A stretch of DNA of 64,000 nt from a virus: positions 17,119 through 81,118 of IMG/VR virus record IMGVR_UViG_3300010399_000036; one strand, given 5' to 3'. Of the stretch, positions 46,660 through 50,661 are shown piece by piece (positions within the stretch are counted from its first letter, which is position 1; each line of letters starts with the position of its first letter). A program made the translations under genes and the position numbers. Under the pieces are notes generated by a model. The model saw only the letters and a program-made list of their open reading frames with translations, was not told the origin of the DNA and searched no databases.

Positions 46660-46895
46660 GAGTCTTTATTCTCCGTGTCGGGATTCGCCTTCGCTCCGCA
46701 GAACGGGCAGAAGGTGACAACGATTGTCGGCGGCTTCTTTCCGCGAATCTTCTTATCGGAATCTTTCCAGTGTGTACCGATGCTCAAAGTCACTGCCGTC
46801 AAGCTGAGGTTCTCGCCAAGCAGGAAGGATGTATCAAGCGCGAAGTTCTGCTCCGCAAGCTTCTCATCGATGCGTGTTATGCAATCGCAGTTCAT
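46656..46895 (-). CDS. small zinc-binding protein
   Basis: N-terminal CDC and C-terminal FCPFCG. Confidence 0.7.
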   Translation of the reverse strand: MNCDCITRIDEKLAEQNFALDTSFLLGENLSLTAVTLSIGTHWKDSDKKIRGKKPPTIVVTFCPFCGAKANPDTENKDS

Positions 46896-47236
46896 TGCCG
46901 TACTCCATTGCCTTCCAGCTTTATCAACTCCCTAAGCACGGCCGGCTTGATGAATCGCCCCTTGCCATCGCAGTAACGACAGTCCCGTTCGATCTGCGGA
47001 AAAACGCCATGCTCGTTCGGCTCTGCGAAGTAGCCGTTTTCCTTAACCTTCCCGGTCCCGCCACACTTGCGGCACTCGGCGGAAGGCGAATGAGGATCGT
47101 CAATAGGTAGTCCGCTAATCTTCCCACGCGCAGCGCCGTGCATCTTGCCGCCGCATCTACATTTGCATGTCGGATGTTTAGCGTTCTCACATTCCGAAGC
47201 CGCTGATGCTGATAGCGCTCTTTGTCGTGTTGCCAT
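46892..47236 (-). CDS. zinc-finger protein with DnaJ-type CxxCxGxG repeats
   Basis: CENA...CKCRCGG..HG; CRKCGGTG; CRYCDGKG. Confidence 0.7.
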   Translation of the reverse strand: MATRQRALSASAASECENAKHPTCKCRCGGKMHGAARGKISGLPIDDPHSPSAECRKCGGTGKVKENGYFAEPNEHGVFPQIERDCRYCDGKGRFIKPAVLRELIKLEGNGVRQ

Positions 47237-47241
47237 ATTCC

Positions 47242-47592
47242 TTACGCAGCCTTTCTTAGTTGCTTGCTGGTTCTCACGCCGAGGCGCGACAGCACACTCC
47301 AGACATGGGCGCACATATGTGACTCTTTTGGTTTGCCGGTTGCTAAAATATATTCAGCATTGGCCTGGCACGGTCGGCCTGTGTACCAGTCGCGGCAGTC
47401 CGCTGTCTCATTCATCAGGTCAATCGTTACGCGCCTCTTGGTTTTATCTTTGTGGTTGAACTTCGATCCAAATGGCGTCACGCGATAGGCAAACTTCCAA
47501 CCGAGACCCTTAACCTTTCGAATCCACATTGACGCAGCTCGCGCTTGGATCAACTCGCTTGGTGTCTCTGTGATTAAAGTTAAGCTGAGCAT
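47242..47592 (-). CDS. SWIM-like zinc-finger protein
   Basis: DC......C...MCAHVWSV. Confidence 0.55.
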   Translation of the reverse strand: MLSLTLITETPSELIQARAASMWIRKVKGLGWKFAYRVTPFGSKFNHKDKTKRRVTIDLMNETADCRDWYTGRPCQANAEYILATGKPKESHMCAHVWSVLSRLGVRTSKQLRKAA

Positions 47593-48079: not shown

Positions 48080-48202
48080 ATTATAGACACGCGTAGAGAA
48101 ATTGTCAACCGTTATTTTGCCTTTTCTTGCTGTAATCGCAACTTGTGAGAAATAAGCGGGTTACAGTAAGTTGTTGACTTTCTCTACCGCTGTCTATAAA
48201 AT
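48080..48202. promoter_or_regulatory. twin divergent sigma70-like promoters with shared spacer sequence
   Basis: Left TTGACA-N17-TATAAT; right TTGACT-N17-TAAAAT; both contain TTTCTCTAC..TGTCTATAA. Confidence 0.75.
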
Positions 48203-48208
48203 CCAGTT

Positions 48209-48487
48209 ATGAACAGCGACGAGATGACGGTGCCCGAAGCGGCTGAACTGAAGGGTTGCCATCGTACCTGGATCAATTATTTGATCAGAGAAGGGCGGCT
48301 AAAGGCTAGGCGTGTAGGTCCAGTCTACTTAATACGTTTGAAGGATTTAGAGGCGTGCAAAGTCCGCCATCGGGAAAAGCCTGATAGCAACGGACACACA
48401 AAAACCTTGCCGCAACGGCGGACTCACGGTAAAAAGGTTCGCGCGAAAACTACCGCAAAGTTATCAGCATCAAGGCAAGGTCGATAA
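48209..48487 (+). CDS. excisionase/MerR-type HTH (HTH_17) DNA-binding protein
   Basis: MTVPEAAELKGCHRTWINYLIREGRLKARRVG..YLI. Confidence 0.85.
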   Translation: MNSDEMTVPEAAELKGCHRTWINYLIREGRLKARRVGPVYLIRLKDLEACKVRHREKPDSNGHTKTLPQRRTHGKKVRAKTTAKLSASRQGR

Positions 48488-48632
48488 CGATGATCGGGAT
48501 TTCGATTGTCGGGGCCGTGCAATTTTCAGTGCAGGGTGGCGGATCTTGTTTACCGGGAAACGGAATGTCGCCAGCACGGGCAGGGGCTGACAGAGAAACG
48601 GCCAGCAGGGAGAGCGCGAGCAGTCTTTTCAT
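48450..48632 (-). CDS. small secreted pro-peptide
   Basis: Signal peptide MKRLLALSLLAVSLSAPARA, then GDIPFPGKQDPPPC...C and a hydrophobic C-terminus; GGAG RBS; extended -10 TGcTATACT. Confidence 0.7.
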   Translation of the reverse strand: MKRLLALSLLAVSLSAPARAGDIPFPGKQDPPPCTENCTAPTIEIPIIVIDLALMLITLR

Positions 48633-48698
48633 GATTACACTCCGGGTTGTAAATAGTTGAAGCGCGCGAAGTATAGCACTTTAGCAGCAAGCTGCACT

Positions 48699-49577
48699 AT
48701 GAAGCTTCAGGAATACACAAGGGTCGATCAGGCGCGGTCTTTGTACTTCGACGGACGCCATGACGAAGCGCTGATAGAGGCTGAGGTGTTGTGTCTGTCT
48801 CCCGAGCCCCTAGAAAGGCTTTCGGGTTTACTTCTTAAAGCCTGCATTCAGGCAGAGCGTAATGAGTTTTCAGAATCCCTTGATACGCTTAAGATCGCCG
48901 GGCCGCTAATTGACGCTGCGCCGGCCAGGTCGAAGGCAGCGTTCCACGGACAGCGGGCATTTAACCGCGTTAAGATTGGGCGGAAGAATCCGGCGCTTGT
49001 CGATTACGAGGCGGCGCGATTTTGGGCGTCAGAAGCAAATGACGAGCTGAGTCAGGTCTCGATTAGCAATAACCTGGCGAAAGTTTACAGCGACGTTGGT
49101 CGGTACGAAAACGCCATCAGTGAATCGGATCGGGCTATTCAACTTGCGCGGAAATTGAACGAGCGTATTTACCTGGGGCGCTGTTATGATCAAAGGGCGC
49201 AGATCTTAAACGATCACAAGCTATACGTTGAGGCGGTTAGGTGGAGTGAGAAAGCCCTCGCTCTTTTAGGCGCACATCCAGCCTCGGCAGAAGCTCGACT
49301 CACACATGGTAGGGCTCTAATCGGTGTTGGCGAATCGTATCTGGATAGTCCCGATCCTGTTGAGGACTTCCGTGTCCGTCGCGAGATTGTTAATTCGATT
49401 CACGTCTCTCTTAGCCCTGAGCTAATCAATCTGGCGCTTGAACGTTGCGAGGGCAACATTAAACGCACCGCGCAGTTTCTGCGTGTTAAGCACCAATCCT
49501 TGCAGGGTTCAATAAATCGTTTTGAATTACGACCTCATCAAAAGCGGCACGTCAAACGCTCAATCATCGCAAAATAA
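48699..49577 (+). CDS. TPR-repeat regulator with C-terminal Fis-type HTH
   Basis: TPRs (NNLAKVYSDVGRYENAI, RAQIL...EAV.WSEKAL) and LINLALERCEGNIKRTAQFL; start 48699 or 48657. Confidence 0.8.
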   Translation: MKLQEYTRVDQARSLYFDGRHDEALIEAEVLCLSPEPLERLSGLLLKACIQAERNEFSESLDTLKIAGPLIDAAPARSKAAFHGQRAFNRVKIGRKNPALVDYEAARFWASEANDELSQVSISNNLAKVYSDVGRYENAISESDRAIQLARKLNERIYLGRCYDQRAQILNDHKLYVEAVRWSEKALALLGAHPASAEARLTHGRALIGVGESYLDSPDPVEDFRVRREIVNSIHVSLSPELINLALERCEGNIKRTAQFLRVKHQSLQGSINRFELRPHQKRHVKRSIIAK

Positions 49578-49714
49578 ATCCTGAACTTGTGTTGAAATCC
49601 TTGTACGCAGCGAAAACTTTTATGTTATTCTGCGCGGACCCGTAAACATGGGGTTTACCTCCCACACTCATCGCTCATAATTTCTCGCGCTGTCGGAAAG
49701 GAAACGCCCTCTGC

Positions 49715-49933
49715 ATGACCTCAACTCGCGCCGTCCAATTAGCTGAACAGATCCTAGAAAATCAAATGGAAAAGGCGGAACCATTGGTGAGGTTGTTGTA
49801 CGCCTTCAAAATCGCACGGGGCGATCCCGAAGCGGAGGTAATGATGGATGCGGTCATTCAATACTGCTACAACAAAACCGAGCACTGCTATGAAGGAATA
49901 GAAGCGTTCGTTTCCGGTTCAATCGCGGCTTAG
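49715..49933 (+). CDS. hypothetical protein
   Basis: AAGGA RBS; own putative promoter TTGTAC..TATTCT. Confidence 0.55.
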   Translation: MTSTRAVQLAEQILENQMEKAEPLVRLLYAFKIARGDPEAEVMMDAVIQYCYNKTEHCYEGIEAFVSGSIAA

Positions 49934-50308
49934 GCTGCGTCGAACCTCGCGCTCGAGCATCTGAACATAACGCTTAAACACCCTCTGCTCGCCAAGCGGC
50001 AAGTCTTTGGCCATCTCCCACACATTTGCCCACTCGCTCTTCAGAAAGCCTGTGTTTTCTACGGCTGTTTGGCCCAACGCATTAGCAATTACTTCATCCA
50101 GCGGACGCATGAGTCCCCAAGCCAGATCGCGCAAAGTAAGAATGCCCGGATTTGGCGTTTTGCCTTGCACGATCATCTGCACGGTCGATCGCGCTATGTC
50201 GCCTCCCCGACGCTTGGAATTCTTATGCACATCCAGAGCCGTGAGATTGTTTTCCCGCATTACGCGCAAAACGTAATCACGGAGTGACTCTGCTACTGAA
50301 TTAACCAT
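49919..50308 (-). CDS. CI-like XRE repressor
   Basis: LRDYVLRVMRENNLT..DV...IARSTV..IVQG.TPNPGI.TL.DLA.GL; divergent from the cro-like gene. Confidence 0.75.
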   Translation of the reverse strand: MVNSVAESLRDYVLRVMRENNLTALDVHKNSKRRGGDIARSTVQMIVQGKTPNPGILTLRDLAWGLMRPLDEVIANALGQTAVENTGFLKSEWANVWEMAKDLPLGEQRVFKRYVQMLEREVRRSLSRD

Positions 50309-50339
50309 CTCTAAGTCGGAGGTTTCCGACGTAGGGCGG

Positions 50340-50419
50340 ACTATAGCAAAGCCGTCTGACGGGATTGCGTCTTTCTGTGCCGAAAAAACAGTTGACACGG
50401 AATTTCGAATGTGCATAAT
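50340..50419. promoter_or_regulatory. cI/cro divergent promoters
   Basis: Rightward TTGACA-N16-CATAAT; leftward extended -10 TGcTATAGT. Confidence 0.6.
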
Positions 50420-50427
50420 CAGCATCC

Positions 50428-50661
50428 GTGAAGAGACAAAATCACAGCAGACGAAGACGCGATCCCGTCTTTTATAATTTCGAACTGCTTAGAGAGCGCC
50501 TTAAAGACGCGGGGTTTAACAGCCCTTATGCGTTAGCCAAACATTTAGATCTCAACGAAGAAACAACCTACAAAGTGTTCAATGGCAAGGGAACCTACAA
50601 ACACGTTCGTCCGATTGCGGACTTCTTTAAGGTCAACTGGGTCGAGCTCCACGATGTTTAA
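50428..50661 (+). CDS. Cro-like HTH protein
   Basis: SPYALAKHLDLNEETTYKVFNG...VRPIADFF. Confidence 0.75.
   Translation: MKRQNHSRRRRDPVFYNFELLRERLKDAGFNSPYALAKHLDLNEETTYKVFNGKGTYKHVRPIADFFKVNWVELHDV

What the first reader, a model, noticed from the sequence alone, without database searches (positions are those of the whole stretch)
48450..49577. Secreted peptide divergent from a TPR + Fis-HTH regulator beside the lysis-lysogeny switch
Seen in sequence: a 60-aa ORF with a clear Sec signal peptide (AxA cleavage, ARA|GDIPFPG), a short Pro-rich segment with two Cys and a hydrophobic tail. It sits head-to-head, about 65 bp away, with a protein made of TPR repeats and a C-terminal Fis-type HTH. The pair lies between the early left promoter and the cI/cro pair. 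Established knowledge: a small secreted pro-peptide next to an intracellular TPR receptor is the RRNPP architecture, including phage arbitrium AimP/AimR. Those receptors are described mainly from Firmicutes and have an N-terminal DNA-binding domain. Inference: an independently built peptide-sensing decision system with the DNA-binding domain at the C-terminus. The 72-aa ORF at 49715, convergent on cI and with its own promoter, could be the output. From memory, similar 'AG(D/E)I..PG' peptides occur beside TPR regulators in Blastocatellia (Acidobacteriota), which would hint at the host; this is unverified.
Basis: partly seen in the sequence, partly recalled or inferred. Interest (0 to 1): 0.85.

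Follow-up and report, generated by a model that had tools for sequence, protein, structure and literature searches.

The report
Phage secreted-peptide and TPR-regulator pair
Next to its repressor genes, this soil phage carries a small exported peptide gene back-to-back with a cytoplasmic TPR DNA-binding regulator. The same pair occurs many times per genome in Blastocatellia (Acidobacteriota), so it looks like Gram-positive-style peptide signalling in a Gram-negative-type phylum, but signalling has not been shown.

Summary
ORF 48450-48632(-) encodes a 60-aa protein. It has a Sec signal peptide with an A|G cleavage site, the motif GDIPFPGK, a PPPCTENC segment and a hydrophobic C-terminal helix. 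It lies 66 bp head-to-head with a 292-aa regulator (48699-49577,+) made of TPR repeats and a C-terminal Fis-type HTH.

The pair sits between a consensus leftward promoter and an XRE-type cI/cro-like pair. The 81-kb record also carries an integrase, so the phage is temperate.

The peptide is a real gene. Differences from a relative fall mainly on third codon positions, and an exhaustive search found 244 related clusters. In Blastocatellia-type genomes the peptide family sits head-to-head with TPR proteins homologous to the phage regulator in 27 of 30 fetched loci and at 26 of 29 hits in five genomes. Each of those genomes has 6-12 regulator paralogs.

Chromosomal partners are TPR + HTH_8, and some are full sigma-54 enhancer-binding proteins with TPR as the sensor domain. 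Many precursors repeat a precursor-specific G(D/E)Ixxx(G/D) motif.

This is not an RRNPP or AimR homolog, because the domain order is inverted and the only likeness is generic TPR. Complex prediction gave weak support. Peptide sensing and a role in lysogeny are inferred, not shown. This scan noted the same cassette before on other DNA. I found no published description.

The parts
48450..48632 (-). Gene for the 60-aa exported peptide precursor. Signal peptide aa 1-20 (48573-48632). GDIPFPG motif aa 21-27 (48552-48572). CTENC aa 34-38 (48519-48533). Hydrophobic/amphipathic C-terminal helix aa 44-60 (48453-48503).
48410..48429 (-). Terminator-like hairpin plus T-run, 20 nt downstream of the peptide stop codon, inside the 3' part of the convergent HTH_17 gene.
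48633..48698 (.). 66-bp divergent control region. The conserved core (48649-48680) is shared with L001. It contains the extended -10 of the peptide gene (TGCTATACT on the - strand, 48670-48678) and a TTGTAA-N4-TTGAAG element. That element resembles the TTGCAA-N6-8-TTGCA pairs in chromosomal cassettes.
48699..49577 (+). 292-aa cytoplasmic regulator. TPR superhelix aa ~8-215 (48720-49343). Flexible linker. Fis-type HTH aa ~240-274 (49416-49520).
48209..48487 (+). 92-aa HTH_17 (excisionase/MerR-like) gene, convergent on the peptide gene and overlapping it by 38 nt. The same overlap is kept in L001.
48080..48202 (.). Back-to-back twin promoters. TTGACA-17-TATAAT faces left (48108-48080) and TTGACT-17-TAAAAT faces right (48174-48202). 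Both carry the same 21-nt spacer element (48081-48101 and 48179-48199).
49715..49933 (+). 72-aa ORF downstream of the regulator, convergent on the cI-like gene, with a weak promoter-like site at 49654-49681. Conserved at 85% and 70% identity in two relatives.
49919..50661 (.). Divergent cI-like (49919-50425, -) and cro-like (50428-50661, +) XRE-type HTH genes, with an 11/12 promoter at 50392-50419.

Best explanation
This is a phage-borne copy of an undescribed signal/receptor-type cassette of Blastocatellia (Acidobacteriota). Shown: a small Sec-type precursor gene lies divergent from a cytoplasmic TPR regulator with a C-terminal Fis-type HTH. Proposed mechanism (inferred): the precursor is exported by Sec and cut after Ala20, which exposes GDIPFPG... 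at the new N-terminus. A short peptide containing this motif is released and accumulates outside the cells. It re-enters through an oligopeptide permease and binds the concave face of the TPR domain. The TPR domain occupies the N-terminal sensor position of the enhancer-binding-protein relatives. Binding would change how the HTH binds the conserved element in the 66-bp divergent control region, and possibly other sites. In the phage, the module would bias the neighbouring cI/cro switch according to the density of infected or lysogenic cells, or let the phage listen to host signals. Phage-level output: inferred only from position.
For: 1. The pair is conserved. L001 (regulator 50% identical) keeps the HTH_17 / peptide / regulator order, the 38-nt overlap, the 66-bp gap and a conserved intergenic core.
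2. The peptide family is large. An exhaustive search found 244 clusters at E<=1e-3, almost all 53-85 aa and matching over their full length. In the 150 members of the best-150 list (plus the first-search relatives) where the G(D/E) site was recognised, all keep K/R in residues 2-6, 137 have Ala at -1, and 138 have V/A/T/S/G at -3.
3. A search for the PPPCTENC coding pattern in 185,579 species genomes hit small secreted proteins almost only in Pyrinomonadaceae, Chloracidobacterium and 'Blastocatellia' MAGs. In 14 of 16 such loci, a TPR protein matching the phage regulator profile (E 1e-13 to 4e-23) lies head-to-head.
4. In the class of the 'Blastocatellia bacterium' genome, 49 of 401 genomes have matches, up to 7 per genome. 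27 of 30 fetched loci have the divergent TPR partner, or 24 of 27 without the three unpublished genomes. In five genomes, 26 of 29 peptide hits adjoin one of 6-12 TPR paralogs.
5. 15 of 16 full-length chromosomal partners are TPR + C-terminal HTH_8. Three are TPR + Sigma54_activat + HTH_8, so TPR sits where enhancer-binding proteins carry their signal-sensing domain.
6. 20 of 169 precursors carry 2-4 copies of G(D/E)Ixxx(G/D). Copies within a precursor are more alike than copies between precursors (1.61 against 0.76 of 4 variable positions; 0 of 5000 permutations). Multi-copy pheromone propeptides are known in RRNPPA systems (PMC9765709).
7. Complex prediction of the regulator with the mature peptide gave weak support: score 0.34, best of 3 controls 0.00. 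The mark was reached by 58 of 80 solved complexes and 2 of 110 mismatched pairs. At 0.60 or under it was reached by only 7 of those 80, and by both mismatches that passed. The runs agree in at least 40% of contacts, and partner pLDDT is at least 39.
8. Candidate host genomes each have 3-5 OppA-type binding proteins. This is permissive evidence only.
Against: There is no direct evidence of processing, export, re-import or binding. The complex prediction is only a weak pass. By its own calibration, such a pass is more often wrong than right unless the prior was already high.

The regulator's fold is a generic TPR superhelix. Best Foldseek hits are LGN/Pins and bacterial kinesin-light-chain-like proteins. 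RapH is rank 33, and no AimR, PlcR or NprR appears in the top 50.

Within the phage-type clade the GDIPFPGK and PPPCTxNC parts are almost invariant. That is not what a strain-private arbitrium code would predict.

The conserved hydrophobic C-terminal helix and the CxxxC pair (108 of 150 relatives) have no role in a simple pheromone model. They fit a membrane-associated small protein at least as well.

Linked genes can be co-conserved because one regulates the other, without any binding. Internal repeats could reflect recent duplication. The peptide would also have to cross an outer membrane twice.
Confidence: 0.5

Rival explanations
1. Regulated cargo. The small protein is an exported, membrane-associated effector, for example a lysogenic-conversion or superinfection-exclusion factor, or a membrane-active peptide. 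The adjacent TPR-HTH protein only controls its transcription. The TPR domain senses something else, such as a host protein or another ligand.
For: Small exported or membrane proteins next to repressor genes are common prophage morons (established knowledge). A hydrophobic C-terminal helix is conserved across the whole family, and a CxxxC pair occurs in 108 of 150 relatives. The N-terminal motif is nearly invariant in the phage clade. Divergent regulator/target pairs are the commonest reason for this kind of synteny. Nothing has been shown about binding beyond a weak prediction.
Against: This does not explain 6-12 diversified paralogous pairs per genome. It does not explain why the motif next to the signal-peptidase site is repeated in precursor-specific form. 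It does not explain why the same peptide family is paired with three different TPR architectures (HTH_8; AAA+ with HTH_8; and an apparent S24-like C-terminal domain, read by eye) that share only the TPR part. The C-terminal helix is only about 11-16 residues long and usually contains an acidic residue, so it is short for a stable membrane anchor.
Confidence: 0.3
2. Intracellular or membrane-proximal sensing of the precursor. The TPR domain binds the unexported or membrane-retained precursor, for example its amphipathic C-terminal helix. The regulator would then report export or processing capacity rather than cell density. This is analogous to TPR chaperone/co-activator circuits of type III secretion (IpgC-MxiE, SicA-InvF).
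For: TPR domains of the LGN and kinesin-light-chain type, the best structural matches, bind extended or helical segments of proteins. The C-terminal helix is the feature kept across all subfamilies. The weak complex signal was obtained with the whole 40-aa mature part, not with a short peptide.
Against: After export, at most one or two residues of the tail would face the cytoplasm (sequence). A canonical Sec signal peptide is strictly conserved, which argues that the periplasm or the outside is the site of action. The repeated N-terminal motifs have no role in this model.
Confidence: 0.12
3. The 60-aa ORF is a chance antisense ORF in the spacer between the HTH_17 gene and the regulator, and only the regulator is real.
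For: The ORF is short. It overlaps the 3' end of a convergent gene, and it matches no Pfam, PHROG or NCBIfam model.
Against: Substitutions against L001 follow a codon-position pattern (23/18/38). There are 244 related clusters with the same domain plan. The gene has its own RBS, a conserved extended -10 and a terminator-like hairpin.
Confidence: 0.01

Closest known systems
RRNPP(A) peptide quorum-sensing systems of Bacillota and their phages and plasmids (Rap-Phr, NprR-NprX, PlcR-PapR, PrgX, Rgg-SHP, AimR-AimP)
   Same: A small Sec-type propeptide gene lies directly beside a cytoplasmic receptor built on TPR repeats and a DNA-binding domain. There are many diversified paralogous pairs per genome. 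Some precursors carry several copies of the candidate signal. Copies occur on mobile elements, including a temperate phage.
   Different: The domain order is inverted: TPR is N-terminal and the HTH is C-terminal. The HTH is of Fis/NtrC type, not XRE type. RNPP_C scores below its cut-off (19.8 against 26.5 bits), and fold matches are generic TPR. The host phylum is a diderm (Acidobacteriota). The conserved candidate signal lies directly after the signal-peptidase site, not at the C-terminus. The precursor has an extra hydrophobic C-terminal helix. No function has been tested.
Arbitrium (aimR-aimP-aimX) of SPbeta-like Bacillus phages
   Same: A phage-encoded secreted peptide plus TPR regulator, placed in the lysogeny-control region, with a small downstream ORF that could serve as an output.
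   Different: The genes are divergent, not a co-directional operon. There is no AimR homology. The peptide motif is nearly invariant among related phages instead of phage-specific. Nothing links the 72-aa ORF to the regulator.
PrgX / prgQ control region of Enterococcus faecalis plasmid pCF10
   Same: The regulator and peptide genes are divergently transcribed from a short shared control region. Antisense or convergent transcription across the peptide gene is possible, because the rightward promoter at 48174-48202 reads through it.
   Different: There is no homology, the peptide type is different, and no second competing peptide is known.
Bacterial sigma-54 enhancer-binding proteins (NtrC family)
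   Same: The C-terminal Fis-type HTH is shared. Chromosomal relatives (L077, L078, L085) are true enhancer-binding proteins, with TPR in the N-terminal sensor position, a central AAA+ domain and HTH_8.
   Different: The phage protein and most chromosomal relatives lack the AAA+ sigma-54 interaction domain, so they cannot act as enhancer-binding proteins. To my knowledge and in the papers searched, no TPR-sensor enhancer-binding protein with a peptide partner has been characterised.

Membership tests
RRNPP(A) receptors | Cytoplasmic receptor with a TPR or TPR-like peptide-binding domain | tested here: met
   TPR_12 E=2.9e-9, above its cut-off. AF2 TPR superhelix, pLDDT 86. No hydrophobic segment.
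RRNPP(A) receptors | Effector domain (XRE-type HTH or three-helix bundle) at the N-terminus, TPR at the C-terminus (PMC9765709) | tested here: not met
   TPR starts at about residue 8. The only DNA-binding domain is a Fis-type HTH at residues ~240-274.
RRNPP(A) receptors | Sequence or fold homology to known members (Pfam RNPP_C; structures of Rap, PlcR, NprR, AimR) | tested here: not met
   RNPP_C 19.8 bits against a cut-off of 26.5. PDB profile search: PlcR E=7e-4, Rap105 E=7e-4, behind LGN and kinesin light chain. Foldseek: LGN/Pins first, RapH rank 33, no AimR/PlcR/NprR in the top 50.
RRNPP(A) receptors | Adjacent gene for a small exported propeptide | tested here: met
   60-aa ORF with a Sec signal peptide 66 bp away. 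Conserved in L001 and across the family.
RRNPP(A) receptors | Mature peptide is re-imported (Opp) and binds the receptor, changing its activity | not testable with these tools
   Indirect only: weak complex prediction, 0.34 against a best control of 0.00. OppA-type proteins are present in candidate host genomes.
RRNPP(A) receptors | Occurrence in Bacillota and their mobile elements | tested here: not met
   Relatives of both genes were found in Blastocatellia-type Acidobacteriota MAGs and soil metagenomes.
Arbitrium (AimR-AimP-AimX) | Co-directional aimR-aimP-aimX operon with an AimR-family receptor | tested here: not met
   The genes are divergent. No AimR family hit in Pfam or PHROGs at E<=1.
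Arbitrium (AimR-AimP-AimX) | Phage-specific hexapeptide at the C-terminus of the propeptide | tested here: inconclusive
   The C-terminus is a conserved hydrophobic helix (…LITLRP). The N-terminal motif is nearly invariant among six phage-type relatives. The mature product is unknown.
Sigma-54 enhancer-binding proteins (NtrC family) | Central AAA+ sigma-54 interaction domain (PF00158) | tested here: not met
   Absent from the phage protein. Present in chromosomal relatives L077 and L085 (E about 1e-57).
Sigma-54 enhancer-binding proteins (NtrC family) | C-terminal Fis-type HTH (PF02954) | tested here: inconclusive
   19.2 bits against a cut-off of 22 in the phage protein. The homologous segment passes the cut-off in P0003, P0009 and P0011 and in most chromosomal relatives. 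FleQ HTH match E=0.018.
Unnamed Blastocatellia peptide / TPR-HTH_8 cassette | Small gene with the plan signal peptide - AG|(D/E)(I/V)..(G) - Pro-rich - (CxxxC) - S/T-rich linker - hydrophobic C-terminal helix, head-to-head with the regulator | tested here: met
Unnamed Blastocatellia peptide / TPR-HTH_8 cassette | Regulator with a homologous TPR domain plus a C-terminal HTH_8 | tested here: met
   The phage-regulator (A1) profile matches chromosomal partners over positions ~6-214 and ~240-294 (E down to 1e-32). Pfam.
Unnamed Blastocatellia peptide / TPR-HTH_8 cassette | About 110-aa N-terminal extension (additional TPRs) of the chromosomal regulators | tested here: not met
   The 13 short regulators (292-309 aa) lack it and form their own clade (support 0.999).

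The most novel reading that the evidence does not exclude
A temperate phage of an Acidobacteriota (diderm) host uses a secreted-peptide / cytoplasmic TPR-receptor circuit to inform its lysis-lysogeny decision. The circuit evolved independently of RRNPP/arbitrium, from TPR-sensor relatives of sigma-54 enhancer-binding proteins. It belongs to a multi-paralog peptide signalling network of the host class, so the phage might communicate with its kin or eavesdrop on host signals.
Probability: 0.35. Interest if true: 0.9.

Novelty: new variant of a known kind. Interest (0 to 1): 0.78.

Why it matters
Peptide signals read by cytoplasmic TPR receptors, and phage decisions based on such peptides (arbitrium), are described only for Bacillota (PMC10075063, PMC9765709). 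If this cassette is a signal/receptor pair, three things follow. Genetically encoded peptide quorum sensing would have arisen a second time. It would be abundant in a major but poorly studied soil phylum. Phages of diderm bacteria would have recruited it too.

The phage copy is the smallest version: a 292-aa regulator, a 60-aa precursor and a 66-bp control region. That makes it a convenient in-vitro test case that needs no cultured host.

Tried and rejected
The long contigs that carry P0005 (69.6 kb), P0012 (58 kb), P0013 and P0008 could not be read. Whether those regulators have a peptide neighbour is unknown.
- The regulator profile found no relative in IMG/VR contigs, in the species-genome collection (with the two peptide patterns used) or in INPHARED phages. 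The peptide profile found none in IMG/VR. One metagenome locus was obtained (L001).
A degenerate DNA pattern was used instead. That pattern samples only the PPPCTENC subfamily.
- Lipoprotein reading: rejected. D/E stands where a lipobox Cys would be.
- PEP-CTERM or another C-terminal sorting tag: considered because some tails follow a PEP-like tripeptide. Rejected because the helix is only about 11-16 residues, often contains an acidic residue, often lacks the basic cluster, and NCBIfam is silent.
- A canonical sigma-54 -24/-12 promoter upstream of the small genes next to the enhancer-binding-protein-type regulators: none found with a strict pattern.
- Further copies in the window of the conserved intergenic element: 2 matches at up to 3 mismatches, against 2.5 expected by chance. 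No regulon could be inferred.
- No RNA holder is listed for this stretch. The laid runs are DNA contigs only. Nothing can be said about expression.
- The portal protein has 35-46% identical relatives in 4 of 401 genomes of the class. No other class was searched as a control, so this is only permissive for the host assignment.
- PDB sequence search with the cI-like protein: no match.
Full report
**What is in the window.** The window is bases 17119-81118 of an 81,118-bp IMG/VR virus record that CheckV rates as complete. It encodes a portal and an HK97-type capsid, and a tyrosine integrase lies at record positions 1683-2855. It is therefore a temperate tailed phage.

The region around the finding reads as follows:
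- A perfect sigma-70 consensus promoter faces left (48108-48080).
- A twin promoter faces right (48174-48202) and drives a 92-aa HTH_17 excisionase/MerR-like gene (48209-48487).
- The 60-aa ORF lies on the opposite strand (48450-48632).
- The regulator follows (48699-49577, +).
- A 72-aa ORF follows (49715-49933, +).
- A divergent cI-like / cro-like pair follows (49919-50425, - ; 50428-50661, +) with an 11/12 promoter.

The cro-like protein hits PHROG repressor families and HTH_26 weakly. The cI-like protein is XRE-like only by language-model features and by a weak structural likeness. I treat both as leads.

**The two genes.** The 60-aa product has a positively charged start, a 13-residue hydrophobic core and an ARA|G site. 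Then come GDIPFPGK, a proline run, CTENC, and a C-terminal hydrophobic helix ending in R.

The regulator ORF can be read from TTG 48657. All 12 homologs are 292-309 aa and begin at the position of ATG 48699, which gives a 66-bp gap.

Pfam finds TPR_12 above its cut-off. HTH_8 (19.2 against 22 bits) and RNPP_C (19.8 against 26.5 bits) fall below theirs. The HTH_8 call is secured by homologs and chromosomal relatives that pass the cut-off and by a FleQ HTH match.

The AlphaFold2 model (pLDDT 86) is a TPR superhelix over residues ~8-215. A poorly predicted linker follows, then three short helices. The protein has no hydrophobic segment.

**The peptide ORF is a real gene.** In L001, a 1.4-kb soil-metagenome contig whose regulator is 50% identical, several features are kept. 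These are the HTH_17 / peptide / regulator order, the 38-nt convergent overlap and the 66-bp gap.

Codon-aligned differences between the two peptide genes are 23/18/38 at positions 1/2/3, with 17 synonymous codon changes.

The intergenic regions share a core that includes an extended -10 (TGnTATACT) for the peptide gene. A GGAG lies 9 nt before its ATG, and a hairpin plus T-run follows its stop codon.

A first search found six relatives. Two lie on contigs of the same length as those of the two closest regulator homologs: 6193 and 2667 bp. That link is an inference from contig length only.

**The family is much larger than the phage clade.** An exhaustive profile search of 1.84 billion representatives gave 244 clusters at E<=1e-3. 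Nearly all are 53-85 aa and match over their full length. They share one plan:
- a signal peptide ending (V/A/T)xA|G(D/E)(I/V);
- a glycine about six residues on;
- a proline run;
- usually CxxxC;
- an S/T-rich linker;
- a hydrophobic or amphipathic C-terminal helix.

In 150 listed relatives where the G(D/E) site was recognised, K/R occurs in residues 2-6 in all 150. Ala is at -1 in 137. A small or V/T residue is at -3 in 138.

**Where the family lives, and what lies next to it.** I searched a degenerate DNA pattern for PPPCTENC across one genome per species (185,579 species) and got 35 loci. About 17 are small secreted proteins. All of these come from Pyrinomonadaceae, Chloracidobacterium, 'Blastocatellia' or related Acidobacteriota MAGs.

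In 14 of 16 of those loci, the small gene is head-to-head with a ~490-aa cytoplasmic TPR protein. In most the gap is 64-85 bp. The TPR protein matches the phage regulator profile over positions ~13-212 (E 1e-13 to 4e-23).

In this subfamily the TPR protein ends in a domain that I read from the sequence as an inactive LexA/S24-like barrel. Pfam is silent on it. An XRE / Phage_CI_repr HTH gene is convergent on the small gene.

I then searched the class of the 'Blastocatellia bacterium' genome with the phage-type peptide profile. 49 of 401 genomes matched, with up to 7 matches per genome. Of the 30 loci fetched from that search, 27 have the divergent TPR partner (E 1e-11 to 8e-27). Three loci (L050, L064, L069) come from unpublished genomes G361, G300 and G135. 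Without them the count is 24 of 27. I quote no sequence from them.

In five genomes examined in full, 26 of 29 peptide hits lie next to one of 6-12 TPR paralogs. Chance adjacency in 5-Mb genomes is well below 1% per hit.

**Architecture of the chromosomal partners.** Sixteen loci were re-fetched with 5-kb flanks. In 15 of them the partner matches the phage profile in both the TPR part and the C-terminal HTH part.

Pfam confirms HTH_8 above its cut-off in seven of the ten partners scanned. L077 and L085 are TPR + Sigma54_activat + AAA_lid + HTH_8. L078, at 760 aa, has the same profile layout but was not scanned against Pfam.

The lineage is therefore related to NtrC-type enhancer-binding proteins in which TPR takes the place of the N-terminal signal-sensing domain. 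Most members, including the phage one, have no AAA+ module.

In a tree of the TPR domain, the 13 short regulators form one clade (support 0.999) beside the sampled chromosomal HTH_8 group. Rooting on the subfamily with the apparent S24-like domain is my choice. That group was not monophyletic in the tree, so I claim no direction of transfer.

**What points to a signal/receptor relationship.**
- The only part common to the three partner architectures is the TPR domain. This is the part expected to bind a peptide.
- Each genome holds many diversified pairs.
- 20 of 169 distinct precursors contain 2-4 copies of G(D/E)Ixxx(G/D). Copies within a precursor share more of the four variable positions than copies from different precursors (1.61 against 0.76; 0 of 5000 permutations; unpublished genomes left out). 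Multi-copy pheromone propeptides are described for RRNPPA systems (PMC9765709). Recent internal duplication could give the same pattern.
- Complex prediction of the regulator with the 40-aa mature part gave 'weak support'. The score was 0.34 against a best control of 0.00. The mark was reached by 58 of 80 solved complexes and 2 of 110 mismatched pairs, but at 0.60 or under by only 7 of those 80 and by both mismatches that passed. The runs agree in at least 40% of contacts. Partner pLDDT is at least 39.
- OppA-type binding proteins are present in the candidate host genomes, so an uptake route exists.
- The control regions of many chromosomal pairs contain paired TTGCAA-like hexamers. The phage and L001 share TTGTAA-N4-TTGAAG at the same place. 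This is a candidate operator, read by eye.

**What argues for caution.** The fold is a generic TPR. Foldseek puts LGN/Pins and BtubC first and RapH at rank 33. The PDB profile search puts PlcR and Rap far behind LGN. So there is no homology argument for peptide sensing.

In the phage-type clade the N-terminal motif and the CxxxC segment hardly vary, while the regulators drop to 50% identity. This is unlike arbitrium codes.

A simple pheromone model does not explain the conserved C-terminal helix or the cysteine pair.

Nothing ties the module to the cI/cro switch except its position. The 72-aa ORF is conserved in two close relatives (85% and 70% identity, on contigs of matching length), but nothing connects it to the regulator. 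No further copy of the intergenic element stands out in the window.

**Comparison with known systems.** Functionally, the closest analogues are RRNPP(A) systems and, for the phage setting, arbitrium. The divergent layout with possible antisense transcription recalls prgX/prgQ.

As a family member it fails the RRNPP tests. The domain order is inverted, the HTH type differs, there is no specific sequence or fold relationship, and the phylum differs.

It also fails the enhancer-binding-protein test, because it has no AAA+ domain, although it is related to true enhancer-binding proteins. It is a member of an unnamed Blastocatellia cassette family, in a short phage-type form.

Full-text searches returned no paper linking Acidobacteriota with RRNPP-like or peptide-pheromone signalling. 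The RRNPP_detector paper places peptide systems in Bacillota.

**Earlier notes of this scan.** After my own analysis, a word search of the scan's notes showed that the same kind of cassette had been noted and followed up before on other genomes: phages, chromosomes and mobile DNA of Acidobacteriota. Those notes agree with this reading. They are AI notes, and I did not use them as evidence.

**Habitat.** The stretch is held in full by one soil metagenome run, which may be its source. Near-identical short contigs covering parts of it occur in a rhizosphere run and in a second soil run. No RNA data are available.

**Verdict.** Conserved functional pairing of the two genes is very likely (about 0.9). 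I put a peptide-signal/receptor relationship at about 0.5, and control of the phage's lysis-lysogeny decision at about 0.35.

Noticed in passing
window 48080-48108 (-) and 48174-48202 (+): Two back-to-back near-consensus promoters share the same 21-nt spacer element (TTATAGACAsCGnTAGAGAAA). It occurs only at these two places in the window, against 0 expected. One factor probably controls the leftward early operon and the HTH_17 gene together.
   Followed up: partly
window 49919-50661: The start of the longest cI-like ORF (50425) is only 2 nt from the cro-like GTG (50428). The -10 of the 11/12 promoter ends 8 nt before that GTG. So cI probably starts at an internal ATG, and cro may be nearly leaderless. 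A 23-nt inverted repeat (50358-50380 / 50447-50469) brackets the promoter.
   Followed up: no
L005-L033 (e.g. L030:3668-5978): A second cassette architecture occurs in Chloracidobacterium and Pyrinomonadaceae MAGs. The small secreted protein is flanked by a convergent XRE/Phage_CI_repr HTH gene and a divergent ~490-aa TPR protein. The C-terminal ~110 aa of that TPR protein look like a catalytically inactive LexA/S24-like barrel. It resembles a CI-type repressor split into two genes with a TPR insert.
   Followed up: partly
L077:2673-4970, L078:2728-5010, L085:5463-7763: These are 760-766-aa proteins with the layout TPR + sigma-54 AAA+ + HTH_8, that is, enhancer-binding proteins with a TPR sensor domain. 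Pfam confirmed this for L077 and L085; L078 shows the same profile layout. Each is head-to-head with a repeat-peptide precursor gene. A strict pattern found no canonical -24/-12 promoter upstream of the small genes.
   Followed up: partly
G117:C17:46840-47356 and G117:C22:182059-182480: At each place, two tandem peptide-precursor genes lie beside a single TPR regulator.
   Followed up: no
window 46892-47314 (-): A 140-aa early-left gene product has CxxC motifs and a weak DnaJ-type zinc-finger match (E=9e-4, below the cut-off). Several neighbouring small early genes are also Cys-rich.
   Followed up: no
window 48513-48704, 49074-49224, 49738-49906, 50055-50403: Short contigs identical or nearly identical to this phage occur in a rhizosphere metagenome and in a second soil metagenome from other studies. 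The phage or a very close relative therefore recurs across samples.
   Followed up: partly
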